Below are positions 51,001 to 54,000 of a stretch of DNA of 64,000 nucleotides, in pieces (the first letter of the stretch is position 1; each line of letters starts with the position of its first letter). This stretch comes from Enterococcus songbeiensis (GTDB lineage Bacteria > Bacillota > Bacilli > Lactobacillales > Enterococcaceae): NCBI RefSeq assembly GCF_005405265.1, contig NZ_BJDS01000001.1, forward strand, positions 1 through 64,000. Reading direction: 5' to 3'. Position numbers: made by a program.

Positions 51001-54000
51001 ATCTAGAAGCAGTTCGTCTGCTGCTTCCAAAAATTGGCAATTTCTGGCTTCGTAATCAATCGTTGTTAGTTGATCCAGCATTACTTTACCTTTCGTTTTC
51101 ATGTTGTTCGCTTCATTTATTTTAATATATAGTGGATAATTTCTATTAGTTGTACGAATAGGTGCTACAATGACTACATTAGAATTATTCGCAATCACAT
51201 CATTACTTAAAACAATATATGGTCTTTTTCCTGTTTGTTCATGACCAGCTCTCGGAGCCGCATTTAACAACAGAATGTCTCCTTGTCGGGGTCTTTTTAC
51301 CATTTCTCATTTCCTACAGCTTCCCCTAAATCTTGCAGCTCTGTATGGAACGGTTCGCTGTGAAAATCTTTAAACAATTCTTCAATTGTGAATTCTGAAG
51401 GGATCACTTGTTCTAAAATAACTCTTTTTCTTCCATTGATTACTTCTGTTTCAATTATAATCTCATCATCCGTTTCTATGCCTAAGAAATTCATAATGTG
51501 TTTGGATAGGCGGATTCCATTGCTGTTTCCCCATTTTTTTACCGATAACGTTTCCATGTTAAAGACTCCTTTCGATTGTATATACCATAGCGTGCCATCT
51601 TTACTTTTCTTACGCTCCTGAGTGATAGGGAACACAACAACATTCCATAATGGTGAAGTTTCTCACTGGACGACTTGTGAAAATTTTTGTCTCTCATCTA
51701 ACAACTGGTCAACTGTATCTCTTCGTTGTATCGTCGCAATCATATATTGACTCATCACACTACAGGCCAATGCAGAGTCTAAATCCCACATCGCAGAAAT
51801 TTCGAGTAGGGTCCTCAGCTCATCTCCCTTCCTCCCCTCAATCAAACCCAGTTTCTTTCGCAAAAAACATGCTTGATCTAGATACCTTTGTCCACTTTCG
51901 ATGAATTCAATTGCCACCTCAAATTTCCGCTGTGAAAATTGCCTTGCTCCTGTAAAAAACTGTCTGCGCGCATTCTCAGCAGTATAGCTTATTTCATGTG
52001 CAATCTTCTCAAGTTGATCTTCTACTGTTTCTTTCATTCTCTTTTTTCAGCTTCTTTCTTAAGTTATTCTCTCTATTTTTTTCTTCCTGAAATTAAATAC
52101 GCAAAAAACTTGGAAATTTTCAAAAAAAATGAAATAGTCTAAAAAAATATCAAAATATTTTCATATCATCCGTACTCGCAAAAAAAAAACAGACCTGATC
52201 CACTCTATACTTGTAAAGTTAATCAAACCTGTCCACCAGTTACTCTCCATCAATGATTCGATTTTTTTGTATTGCTGTGCTTATCTGATTTCATAATCTT
52301 TTTCTATCTTTTTAATCAATTTTCTTAATTATTGTCACTTCCAGAATAAAATCCTTTTTTCGACTTGTTGAGCGAGTGAAAATAAAATCAGCCCGATTAT
52401 AGAAAGTAAAATAACAGAACTCAAAATAATATTTATATCATACATTTCATTTCCATAAACTAGTAAATACCCAAGTCCAGATTTAGCTCCCATCATCTCG
52501 CCAATTACAGCACCAGTCATGGCTTGTGTCACTGCGATTTTTACTCCAGACATTATCGAAGTTAATATAAATGGAAATTCCAATGTCTTAAACTGTTGCC
52601 CTTTTGTAGCACCGAATACTTTCAAAAGATCAAGATAAGCACTATTCATCTCCTCTAGCATCATTTGAACGTTCACAAGTATAGGAAATGATACCACTAG
52701 TATAACCAATGCTACTTTAGAACTGATTCCCAATCCGAACCACAAGATAAATAGAGGAGCCAAAGAGATTTTAGGTGCTACCTGTGCTATTACTAATATA
52801 GGCATAAACAATCGATTGATGATTTTCAGTTTTCCTAAAAGATATCCAAGAATTCCACCAACCAAAATGCCAAGAATGGTTCCCACAATTATTTCCAATA
52901 CAGTTGTTCCCACATTGGCCAATAAATCACCAGTAATTAGATATTCACAGAAGTATTTTGCTAAATTTATCGGCATAGGAAGAATCGCTTCAGATATCTT
53001 CAATACTATGACTGCTAATTGCCAAATTAATAGGATAACTATTCCCAAGAAAGTAGGATAAAGTATCTTTTTCATAATTATTTCTTCTCCTCACAGAAAT
53101 TAACAATCAGTTTCTCTGCAGAATACGATTCTTCAATCAATCCGTATTCGTCTAAGATTCGAATGTAGCTATTATATTTTTCTAAATCTGAATAACCAAA
53201 TCCATATTTAGCAGTATTATCGCTCTGCCATAAATGGGAAATAAATTCGTTTTTTATGACCTTCATAACTAGGTCTTCGCTTTGTTTAGCAGCTGGAGTA
53301 AAATCATTGATTGCAGTATTAACGCTCTCTAATAATCCATCCTGATAAATCAGAAAGTTCAGTGACCTATCTATTACCCGGTTCATTGACTGACAAATAG
53401 CTCTATTTTCTTTAAGAAATTTCTCAGAAGTAATCAGAACATTGCCAGATATAGGTATATAATCATTTAATCGAAATTCTAAAACATCTATACCCTGTTC
53501 TTTCAAATCATATTTTCGAAGCATCGAAAAACAGATGCCATCTACCTGATTAGTGACAAGAGCATTTACTATTGCCCCCGTTCCAATAATTTTAATGTGT
53601 ACATCGTCAACCGTCATTCCATATTGTTTCAAAATCATTTGAAGTTGAATAAAGTTAGGACTGCCAAAACTAGTAATTGCGATAGTTTTTCCTTTTAAAT
53701 CTTTTGGTGATCTAATTTCTGCACGTTTTTTAAACATAACGGCTCCTAGACCTTGTTGATAAGTGGAGTGAATTATCTTTACAGGCACTTCATTTCCTCT
53801 CCCAATAATTACTGGGTCAGAATTGGGAAATCCAAATTGCACATTATTCATTGCAACATTTTTTATGATCTCAACAGCTGATGAATAATAGAATTCTACA
53901 TCCAATCCTTCTTCAGCAAACCAGCCCTTTGATTTAGCTATATAAAGTGGAACATAATATGGTGTAGCGGAACCATCCAGTTGAATAGATATTTTTGTCA

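What the first reader, a model, noticed from the sequence alone, without database searches (positions are those of the whole stretch)
52160..52300. Second copy of the RAT-like/terminator attenuator, with a degenerate remnant of the CAT-ORF 3' end, 5.4 kb downstream in the same transcription unit
The minus strand of 52190-52290 repeats the 57650-57760 element almost verbatim: ...AAGCACAGCAAUACAAAAAAAUCGAAUCAUUGAUGGAGAGUAACUGGUGGACAGGUUUGAUU... against ...AAGCACAACAAUAUCGAAAAAUUGAAUAA AAAUUGUUGGAGAGUAACUGGUAUGCAGGCUUGAUCC.... It includes about 40 nt homologous to the C-terminal codons of the CAT ORF (QYRKIE-stop in copy A, QYKKIES with the stop lost and an internal stop in copy B). It is followed by a 12-bp stem and U10 terminator. 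Copy B sits between the ABC importer and an EIIA-Lac-like gene. The same antiterminator would therefore gate read-through at two points of one long minus-strand unit. Conservation of the ORF end relative to the RAT in both copies argues that the CAT-only gene ended at that position before the duplication, so it is not a recent truncation.
Basis: seen in the sequence. Interest (0 to 1): 0.62.

Follow-up and report, generated by a model that had tools for sequence, protein, structure and literature searches.

The report
Orphan second antiterminator site after operon
A diverged partial copy of a small "antiterminator target plus terminator" switch sits at the end of a six-gene uptake operon in Enterococcus songbeiensis; it comes from a portable regulatory cassette built around a 52-residue RNA-binding protein that has no sensor domains, which is an unusual variant of a well-known control system.

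Summary
On the minus strand, 52282-52179 (copy B) is homologous to 57737-57630 (copy A). The local alignment scores 69, against 21.9±2.9 (max 38) for shuffles. It is not "almost verbatim": 79/108 identical with two gaps.

Copy B holds 26 nt of CAT-ORF codons (AQQYKKIE, stop lost), a 29-nt RAT-like hairpin and a hairpin plus U10 terminator.

Copy A is the 3' end of a conserved ~600-bp cassette: promoter, ~235-nt structured leader with its own terminator, 52-aa CAT-only gene, RAT and terminator. This cassette sits in front of unrelated operons in several enterococci, so the CAT-only gene is old, not a recent truncation.

Copy B is the only orphan copy found. It aligns best, and without gaps (81/102), to another cassette type.

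Its RAT is weakened. It scores 22.9 bits against 59 for copy A, and the model hairpin is +3.6 against -6.7 kcal/mol. The 5' strand and both internal-loop nucleotide sets are intact.

Best reading (about 0.5): B ends the MFS-phosphorylase-ABC operon and still allows reduced, CAT-dependent read-through into a 124-aa gene and mazEF. Main rival (about 0.33): the RAT is a dead relic and B is now only a terminator.

This is a new variant of BglG/SacY-type antitermination, of moderate interest.

The parts
58172..58201 (-). Cassette promoter (TTGACA-18-TAGAAT) with a cre-like TAGGAATCGTTTTCA between the hexamers
   Evidence: Best promoter match in the region, 11/12. Conserved at the nucleotide level in 7 cassettes. 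The cre reading is inferred from a consensus recalled from memory.
57900..58168 (-). About 235-nt structured leader ending in its own intrinsic terminator (57936-57907) just before the CAT RBS
   Evidence: Consensus fold of 7 cassettes: 73 pairs, 5 with compensatory change. Terminator called. No Rfam match at E<=10.
57709..57867 (-). CAT-only gene, 52 aa (MVVVQ...YRKIE-stop), with no PRD domains
   Evidence: Pfam CAT_RBD E=1.3e-12. SacY CAT (PDB 1auu) E=1.7e-4. 100% identical to the E. songbeiensis protein. Synonymous codon changes equal or exceed non-synonymous ones in most cassette pairs.
57672..57700 (-). RAT-A, a 29-nt hairpin GGAGAGUAACUGGUAUGCAGGCUUGAUCC
   Evidence: 10-pair model with two internal loops, -6.7 kcal/mol. 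59 bits with model R1.
57631..57684 (-). Terminator A: 19-bp two-tier hairpin plus UUUUUUGUUU, sharing 13 nt with RAT-A
   Evidence: -25.3 kcal/mol; folding z = -4.0.
52335..57564 (-). Six-gene operon: MFS transporter, uridine/purine-nucleoside-phosphorylase-like enzyme, ABC ATPase, permease, NMT1/SsuA-like binding protein, permease
   Evidence: Pfam and NCBIfam hits. Gene gaps of -19 to 14 nt. The same module is PucR-linked in E. gallinarum.
52254..52283 (-). Remnant of the CAT ORF 3' end in copy B: TAA, then AQQYKKIE, with the former stop now TCA
   Evidence: Alignments. tblastn 7/8 residues at 52280-52257.
52220..52248 (-). RAT-B: GGAGAGUAACUGGUGGACAGGUUUGAUUA
   Evidence: 5' strand 13/13 identical and internal-loop nucleotides intact. 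9 of 10 model pairs kept: two G-C changed to G-U, terminal pair lost. +3.6 kcal/mol; 22.9 bits, E~0.0015.
52180..52232 (-). Terminator B: 11-bp plus 6-bp hairpin followed by U10
   Evidence: -14.4 kcal/mol for the hairpin model; -19.8 kcal/mol in the 79-nt context. 100% identical in sister strain L013.
51663..52037 (-). 124-aa gene downstream of B, a species-restricted remote paralog of EIIA-Lac-like proteins
   Evidence: Only E. songbeiensis hits. 25% identity, E=7e-8, to the 135-aa ORF. W in place of the EIIA-Lac phospho-His.
50947..51557 (-). mazE/mazF-like toxin-antitoxin pair, the next genes reachable by read-through; terminator-like site at 50934-50911
   Evidence: NCBIfam MazE 8e-10 and MazF 5e-15. 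Terminator scan.

Best explanation
Copy B is a truncated, diverged paralog of the 3' module of a portable CAT-only antitermination cassette. It holds the last 8 CAT codons, the RAT and the overlapping terminator.

The cassette (58201-57631) works as follows, by inference:
- It makes a 52-aa stand-alone CAT domain from its first cistron.
- CAT dimers bind the RAT hairpin on nascent RNA. This keeps the 13 shared nucleotides out of the terminator, so RNA polymerase reads into the MFS-phosphorylase-ABC operon.
- The protein has no PRD sensor. Control must therefore come from how much CAT is made, through the cre-like promoter and the leader terminator. The result is a dosage-dependent, thresholded switch.

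Copy B, 5.45 kb downstream, is first of all the intrinsic terminator of that operon. Its RAT 5' strand and both internal loops are intact, and its terminator is proportionally weaker. It therefore most likely still responds to the same CAT protein, with lower affinity. At high CAT levels a fraction of transcripts would continue into the 124-aa gene and mazEF.

Shown: homology, both alternative structures, the terminator, the CAT domain, and the cassette family.
Inferred: binding, read-through and dosage logic.
For: - Homology is far above chance.
- B's RAT keeps 9 of 10 model pairs. All of its changes fall in the apical loop, in wobble-preserving C-to-U changes, or in the terminal pair.
- Internal loops, the main CAT recognition feature according to PMC5393181, are unchanged in B.
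- The RAT 5' strand, which the terminator does not need, has 0/13 changes against 23/104 overall (P~0.03 for that pre-specified block).
- The energy gap between terminator and RAT is about the same in A (-18.6) and B (-18.0 kcal/mol).
- No convincing promoter lies between the operon and B or between B and the 124-aa gene, and the operon genes are tightly packed.
- The cognate CAT protein is encoded upstream. The other CAT protein in the window, GlcT, has a different RAT that the cassette model does not detect.
- Precedent: an acquired RAT puts hylA under NagY control in E. faecalis (PMC9981650).
Against: - B's RAT hairpin is unstable on its own (+3.6 against -6.7 kcal/mol) and scores 36 bits below every cassette RAT.
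- The 3' segment CAGGCTTGATCCATTTCAC is invariant in all cassettes aligned, including the distant L017/L018 type whose CAT is about 64-68% identical. B has 5 changes in it.
- B has the longest U tract of any copy, as expected for a plain efficient terminator.
- The 0/13 signal is weak: a run of 15 matches somewhere in the alignment is not unusual (P=0.37).
- Conservation of B across species could not be tested. The only other genome with B is a near-identical sister strain.
- There are no expression data.
Confidence: 0.5

Rival explanations
1. B is a decayed relic. The RAT no longer binds CAT, and the element survives only because its hairpin plus U10 serves as the constitutive terminator of the six-gene operon. 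Downstream genes have their own weak promoters.
For: - RAT model energy is +3.6 kcal/mol, and the RAT fold is not the minimum-energy structure.
- 22.9 against 59 bits with the cassette model.
- Terminal G-C lost and two G-C weakened, with no compensation on the 5' side.
- 5/19 changes in a segment that is invariant in all cassettes.
- U10 is the best U tract in the family.
- In L004 the related small genes sit behind an ordinary terminator.
Against: - The RAT 5' strand is perfectly conserved although a terminator does not need it (0/13, P~0.03).
- Internal-loop nucleotides are intact.
- No good promoter was found for the 124-aa gene.
Confidence: 0.33
2. B is the leader attenuator of a separate transcription unit. 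That unit would start at the promoter-like site inside the last permease gene (52424-52396) and be regulated in trans by CAT, independently of the operon transcript.
For: TTGAGT-17-TATAAT, 10/12 match, lies about 140 nt upstream of RAT-B.
Against: - Promoter-like sites in this A/T-rich region are no more frequent than in shuffles (26 found against 32.7±5.9 expected).
- The site lies inside coding sequence.
- Nothing indicates that it is conserved for promoter function.
Confidence: 0.07
3. B is recognised by another antiterminator encoded elsewhere in the genome (a second CAT-only paralog or a full-length BglG/LicT-type protein), not by the adjacent CAT.
For: - Enterococcus sp. JM9B carries at least two CAT-only paralogs (P0002 and P0004).
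- B is closer to the L003-type cassette than to the resident copy A.
- Cassettes recombine with one another.
Against: - Only one cassette and one other CAT protein (GlcT, with a different RAT type) are visible in the 64-kb window.
- All cassette RATs are nearly identical, so paralogs would probably cross-react rather than discriminate.
Confidence: 0.08
4. The similarity is chance or low-complexity A/T similarity.
For: The region is A/T-rich, and the U and A runs contribute to the alignment.
Against: - Alignment score is about 16 sd above shuffles.
- The exact 17-specified-base core is found twice with 0.05 expected.
- Covariance model E~0.0015.
- Both alternative structures are retained.
Confidence: 0.01

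Closest known systems
E. coli bgl operon: two RAT/terminator sites flanking bglG, both relieved by BglG
   Same: One CAT-domain antiterminator acts at two RAT-overlapping terminators in one transcription unit, with one site directly after the regulator gene (own knowledge; general mechanism in PMC12591593).
   Different: - BglG has PRD1 and PRD2 and is controlled by BglF/HPr phosphorylation; here the protein is CAT only.
- The first bgl site precedes the regulator gene; here a different, non-RAT leader terminator does.
- The second site here lies after six structural genes and is degenerate.
Isolated CAT domains SacY(1-55) and LicT-CAT of B. subtilis
   Same: - About 55-residue dimeric RNA-binding domain.
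- The HNA and G-x-GI-x-F-x-KK-x-D motifs align (PDB 1auu, E=1.7e-4).
- The laboratory-truncated domains are constitutively active antiterminators (own knowledge; Manival et al. 1997).
   Different: Those are engineered fragments. Here the 52-aa form is the natural gene, conserved with its stop codon in at least 7 cassettes.
NagY regulon of Enterococcus faecalis (RAT before nagY-nagE and an acquired RAT before hylA)
   Same: An extra RAT-terminator copy recruits additional genes to an existing antiterminator in trans (PMC9981650).
   Different: - NagY is a full-length PRD protein.
- The hylA RAT is a 5' leader, not an intra- or post-operon site.
- The hylA RAT carries no ORF remnant.
B. subtilis hutP-hut operon
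   Same: A small RNA-binding regulator is encoded as the first cistron, followed by an intercistronic terminator that the regulator overrides (PMC12591593).
   Different: HutP is an unrelated fold, needs histidine and Mg2+ as ligands, and binds NAG repeats rather than a RAT hairpin.

Membership tests
BglG/SacY-type RAT-terminator attenuator (copy B) | 29-33-nt hairpin with a variable apical loop and a stem interrupted by two conserved internal loops (PMC5393181) | tested here: inconclusive
   Copy A and all cassette copies fit a 29-nt, 10-pair model with two internal loops (-6.7 kcal/mol). B keeps 9/10 pairs and both loops, but the model fold is +3.6 kcal/mol and is not its minimum-energy structure.
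BglG/SacY-type RAT-terminator attenuator (copy B) | The 3' end of the RAT is shared with the 5' arm of an intrinsic terminator, so the two folds exclude each other | tested here: met
   13 nt are shared (52232-52220). The literature range is 6-10 nt, so the overlap here is larger.
BglG/SacY-type RAT-terminator attenuator (copy B) | Stable hairpin followed by a U tract | tested here: met
   11+6 bp, -14.4 kcal/mol, U10.
BglG/SacY-type RAT-terminator attenuator (copy B) | Match to a curated RAT model or consensus | not testable with these tools
   Rfam returned no match for either copy. The resemblance to GGAUUGUUACUGCAUUCGCAGGCAAAACC is from memory. Against my own cassette model, B scores 22.9 bits and A 59.
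BglG/SacY-type RAT-terminator attenuator (copy B) | A cognate CAT-domain protein binds the RAT and suppresses termination | not testable with these tools
   A CAT gene lies 5.45 kb upstream. Binding and read-through need experiments.
BglG/SacY family antiterminator protein | N-terminal CAT RNA-binding domain | tested here: met
   PF03123 E=1.3e-12, 47.9 bits against a cut-off of 25. N-terminal matches to NCBIfam GlcT and LicT.
BglG/SacY family antiterminator protein | Two PTS regulation domains (PRD1, PRD2) that control CAT activity | tested here: not met
   The ORF ends after 52 aa. The stop is conserved in at least 7 cassettes, and all library hits are short proteins. The protein therefore works like a CAT domain but is not a canonical family member.
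PTS EIIA lactose/cellobiose family (for the gene downstream of B) | Pfam PF02255 or NCBIfam score above the curated cut-off | tested here: not met
   The 124-aa protein has no hit. Its paralogs score 26.3 and 17.8 bits against a cut-off of 27. NCBIfam gives 29 bits against a cut-off of 144. A profile against PDB 1e2a gives E=0.019.
PTS EIIA lactose/cellobiose family (for the gene downstream of B) | Phosphorylatable histidine in helix 3 | tested here: not met
   In the profile alignment the His of 1e2a aligns with H in the 135-aa clade but with W in the 124-aa protein.

The most novel reading that the evidence does not exclude
Some enterococci use a portable ~600-bp regulatory cassette: a cre-like promoter, a new ~235-nt structured leader (a candidate riboswitch-like sensor), a PRD-less 52-aa CAT antiterminator, and its RAT/terminator. 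By recombination the cassette has been placed in front of unrelated catabolic operons. Detached RAT/terminator modules such as copy B extend the same trans-acting, dosage-controlled regulon to further genes, here a toxin-antitoxin pair and an EIIA-like protein. In this reading the signal is sensed by RNA and promoter rather than by PTS phosphorylation of the protein.
Probability: 0.3. Interest if true: 0.72.

Novelty: new variant of a known kind. Interest (0 to 1): 0.5.

Why it matters
CAT-domain antiterminators are textbook sugar sensors, and their RNA-binding domain is described as always governed by PRD domains (over 95% of sequences, PMC12591593). A naturally PRD-less CAT protein is a different design. 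It comes packaged with its own promoter, a structured leader and its RNA target, and the package is reused in front of PTS, ABC and nucleoside-uptake operons. This separates "what is sensed" from "what is switched".

Copy B shows that the RNA half of the switch can be detached and reused, or can decay into a plain terminator. It therefore gives a natural pair of strong and weak RAT sites for one 52-aa protein. Such a pair is a convenient system for measuring how RAT stability sets antitermination thresholds. The module is also compact enough to be useful for synthetic biology.

Tried and rejected
- **Genome-contig scans:** both found nothing (RAT pattern; CAT alignment), although the pattern matches every fetched locus. 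Species-level conservation of B could therefore not be tested.
- **Metagenome scan:** the RAT pattern gave one short contig.
- **E. sp. JM9B ortholog:** P0002 (94% CAT identity) and P0001 are not on record for context look-up. The permease next to B has no close homolog except in a sister strain.
- **Leader peptide hypothesis:** a peptide (M/L)LVYLLCQRYWTVV* overlapping the leader terminator was rejected because frame and stop are not conserved in L004/L011.
- **Extra helix hypothesis:** pairing between the ORF end (ACAACAAU) and AUUGUUG 5' of the RAT is not kept in other cassettes. Conservation there is explained by coding.
- **A second RAT before the EIIA-like pair in L004:** absent; an ordinary terminator sits there.
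- **Third covariance-model hit (6626-6657, 13 bits):** it lies inside a coding region with no terminator, so it is chance.
- **Downstream ORFs in L018/L020:** they are spurious frames, not homologs of the 124-aa protein.
- **Further homology upstream of 52282:** none was found to the CAT ORF or the leader.
- **Rfam:** no family matches the RATs or the leader.
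Full report
**1. What is there**

All features below are on the minus strand. The CAT protein is 100% identical to one from Enterococcus songbeiensis. Read 5' to 3', the region contains:
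- A near-consensus promoter at 58201-58172.
- A ~270-nt leader that ends in its own intrinsic terminator at 57936-57907.
- A 52-codon ORF at 57867-57709, which is a CAT RNA-binding domain and nothing else. Support: Pfam PF03123 E=1.3e-12, SacY CAT 1auu E=1.7e-4, and N-terminal-only matches to GlcT/LicT models.
- A 29-nt RAT-like hairpin at 57700-57672, starting 8 nt after the stop codon.
- A 19-bp terminator hairpin plus U tract at 57684-57631, sharing its last 13 nt with the RAT.
- Six tightly packed genes: an MFS transporter, a uridine/purine nucleoside phosphorylase-like enzyme, and a four-gene NitT/TauT-type ABC importer.
- Copy B, beginning 52 nt after the last permease stop.
- A 124-aa gene, a mazEF-like pair, and two small remote EIIA-Lac-like genes.

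**2. Checking the observation**

A local alignment places the homology at A 57737-57630 and B 52282-52179. It has 79 identities over 108 columns, one 3-nt gap and one 1-nt gap. The score is 69, against 21.9±2.9 (max 38) for 500 dinucleotide shuffles.

The core GGAGAGTAACTGGNNNNCAGG occurs exactly twice in the window, with 0.05 expected. A covariance model built from five distinct cassette RATs, without B, scores A at 59 bits and B at 22.9 bits (E~0.0015). The next hit is 13 bits and lies inside a coding region.

So the repeat is real and is not an A/T-tract artefact. "Almost verbatim" overstates it.

The left edge of the homology lies inside the CAT ORF. B reads TAA then GCA CAG CAA TAC AAA AAA ATC GAA TCA.

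B's terminator is an 11-bp lower stem and a 6-bp upper stem followed by U10.

**3. Copy A belongs to a portable cassette**

Close relatives of the 52-aa protein are few, and all are short. Fetching their loci showed that the whole unit is conserved at the nucleotile level over about 600 bp. The unit runs from TGTTCGCTTGACA through the leader, the CAT gene, the RAT and the terminator. It precedes quite different genes:
- A PTS EIIA/B/C plus GH1 operon (L001, E. sp. JM9B; L004).
- A mannose-type PTS with SIS and aminotransferase genes (L002, E. mediterraneensis).
- A sugar ABC importer (L003).
- EamA plus a cellobiose-type PTS plus MlrC (L011/12, and the more distant L017/18).
- An IS66 insertion (L005-10).

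In E. gallinarum the same MFS-phosphorylase/ABC module is associated with a PucR regulator and has no cassette.

The CAT ORFs end at ...KIE-stop in all intact cassettes. Synonymous codon changes equal or exceed non-synonymous ones in most pairs. The CAT-only form is therefore an established gene, not a recent truncation.

A 2025 review states that CAT activity is "always" dependent on regulatory domains, with two PRDs in over 95% of sequences. It does not discuss stand-alone CAT proteins (PMC12591593). My literature searches found no description of them.

**4. Where copy B comes from**

Among the 13 fetched loci that carry the RAT, plus the window, B is the only RAT/terminator without a cassette in front of it. 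The one further contig found by the metagenome scan was not inspected.

B matches the L003-type cassette end best. That alignment is gapless with 81/102 identities, whereas the resident copy A needs gaps.

A sister strain (L013; permease 98% identical) has an identical B. Its copy A is L003-like across the CAT 3' third and window-like from the RAT loop onward, so cassettes recombine with one another.

A and B are direct repeats of about 105 bp flanking the 5.4-kb transport module. This is what a Campbell-type integration of the module into an older "cassette then 124-aa gene" locus would leave behind. It would also result from a partial duplication of a cassette end. This origin is inference only.

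**5. Is B still a switch?**

Evidence for function:
- All 13 nt of the RAT 5' strand are unchanged, although a terminator does not need them. That is 0/13 against 23/104 overall, P~0.03 for this pre-specified block. The signal is weak, because a run of 15 matches somewhere in the alignment is not unusual (P=0.37).
- The nucleotides of both internal loops are unchanged. [quoted passage not shown]
- B's changes fall in the apical loop (variable across the family), in two C-to-U changes that keep G-U pairs, and in the terminal pair.
- The terminator keeps its two-tier shape, including one double compensatory change.
- The energy gap between terminator and RAT is similar in A (-18.6 kcal/mol) and B (-18.0 kcal/mol).

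Evidence against function:
- The RAT model fold is +3.6 kcal/mol in B, against -6.7 kcal/mol in nearly all cassettes.
- B scores 36 bits lower than A with the cassette model.
- The segment CAGGCTTGATCCATTTCAC is invariant in all cassettes, even the distant type, yet B has 5 changes in it.
- B's U10 is the longest U tract of any copy, as expected for a plain efficient terminator.

No convincing promoter separates the operon from B, or B from the 124-aa gene. The other CAT protein in the window, a full-length GlcT upstream of ptsG, has a different RAT type that the cassette model does not detect.

**6. Mechanism proposed**

The following is inference, except where a call is cited.
- The promoter fires. 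It carries a cre-like site, whose right half CGTTTTCA is invariant in 7 cassettes. The cre consensus is from memory.
- Some unknown signal allows passage of the leader terminator.
- The 52-aa CAT is translated. As a dimer it stabilises the RAT on later transcripts, which blocks the overlapping terminator.
- There is no PRD, so output depends on the amount of CAT. This gives a thresholded, feed-forward response.
- B then acts as the operon's terminator with a higher CAT threshold for read-through into the 124-aa gene and mazEF.

I put this at about 0.5. The pure-terminator relic reading gets about 0.33.

**7. Comparison with known systems**

- *E. coli bgl operon:* it works like this operon in that one CAT protein acts at two RAT/terminators in one unit.
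- *Engineered SacY(1-55) and LicT-CAT fragments:* it works like these in that they are constitutively active CAT domains.
- *NagY/hylA:* it resembles this case in that an added RAT recruits new genes (PMC9981650).

The protein is not a canonical BglG/SacY family member, because the defining PRDs were tested for and are absent. The gene downstream of B is only remotely EIIA-Lac-like. It has no Pfam or NCBIfam hit, its paralogs are sub-threshold, and it has W in place of the phospho-His.

**8. Verdict**

The element is a new variant of a known kind. Copy B alone is of modest interest. The CAT-only cassette and its unexplained structured leader, which B led to, raise the overall interest to about 0.5.

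Noticed in passing
window 58168-57900 (-); also L001 9700-9974, L002 9706-9976, L003 9699-9973, L004 5605-5876, L005 5077-5347, L011 9789-10062: A ~235-nt leader between the cassette promoter and the CAT gene folds into a long closing helix with several inner helices, followed by a terminator (57936-57907). Five pairs show compensatory change. The invariant UUGUACCUAAU (58037-58027) repeats the GUACCU of the terminator's 3' arm and could form an antiterminator (duplex -6.8 kcal/mol, not in the minimum-energy fold). There is no Rfam match. This is a candidate new cis-regulatory RNA with an unknown signal.
   Followed up: partly
window 58195-58178 (-) and the same position in 7 cassettes: A cre-like sequence (TAGGAATCGTTTTCA) lies between the -35 and -10 hexamers of the cassette promoter. 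The right half CGTTTTCA is invariant across cassettes, which suggests catabolite repression by CcpA.
   Followed up: partly
window 25775-22775 (-): A canonical glcT-like antiterminator (278 aa; its N-terminus matches the SacY CAT, E=3e-13; PRDs not tested) precedes a ptsG-like EIICBA gene. Its leader holds a GlcT-type RAT overlapping a terminator (about 25775-25690). The cassette RAT model does not detect this RAT.
   Followed up: partly
L002 10085-10140 (E. mediterraneensis): The CAT ORF carries a 28-nt internal tandem duplication that shifts the frame (46-aa product). This is a probable pseudogene, with the leader and RAT still intact.
   Followed up: no
L013 1-130 compared with window 57830-57700: In the sister strain the 3' third of the CAT gene is identical to the L003-type cassette, while the sequence from the RAT loop onward matches the window. 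This is evidence of recombination or gene conversion between cassettes.
   Followed up: partly
window 50709-49987 (-); L004 9646-10396; L013 9084-9815: A pair of small helical proteins (about 102 aa and about 120-135 aa; remote, sub-threshold EIIA-Lac similarity) lies downstream of cassette-driven operons in two different contexts. The association may be functional or may be coincidence.
   Followed up: partly
window 51557-50947 (-); L013 7061-8669: A mazEF-like toxin-antitoxin pair follows the 124-aa gene. The sister strain has an extra AAA_21 ATPase plus a 133-aa gene inserted after it, which marks this stretch as a variable islet.
   Followed up: no
L014 1204-8344 (E. gallinarum): The same MFS-phosphorylase and ABC gene set is arranged divergently around a PucR-family regulator. 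This suggests a nucleoside/purine-related substrate, and shows that E. songbeiensis replaced a DNA-binding regulator with the CAT cassette.
   Followed up: no
window 9493-9579 (-): Bacterial small SRP RNA (Rfam RF00169, 55.6 bits).
   Followed up: no
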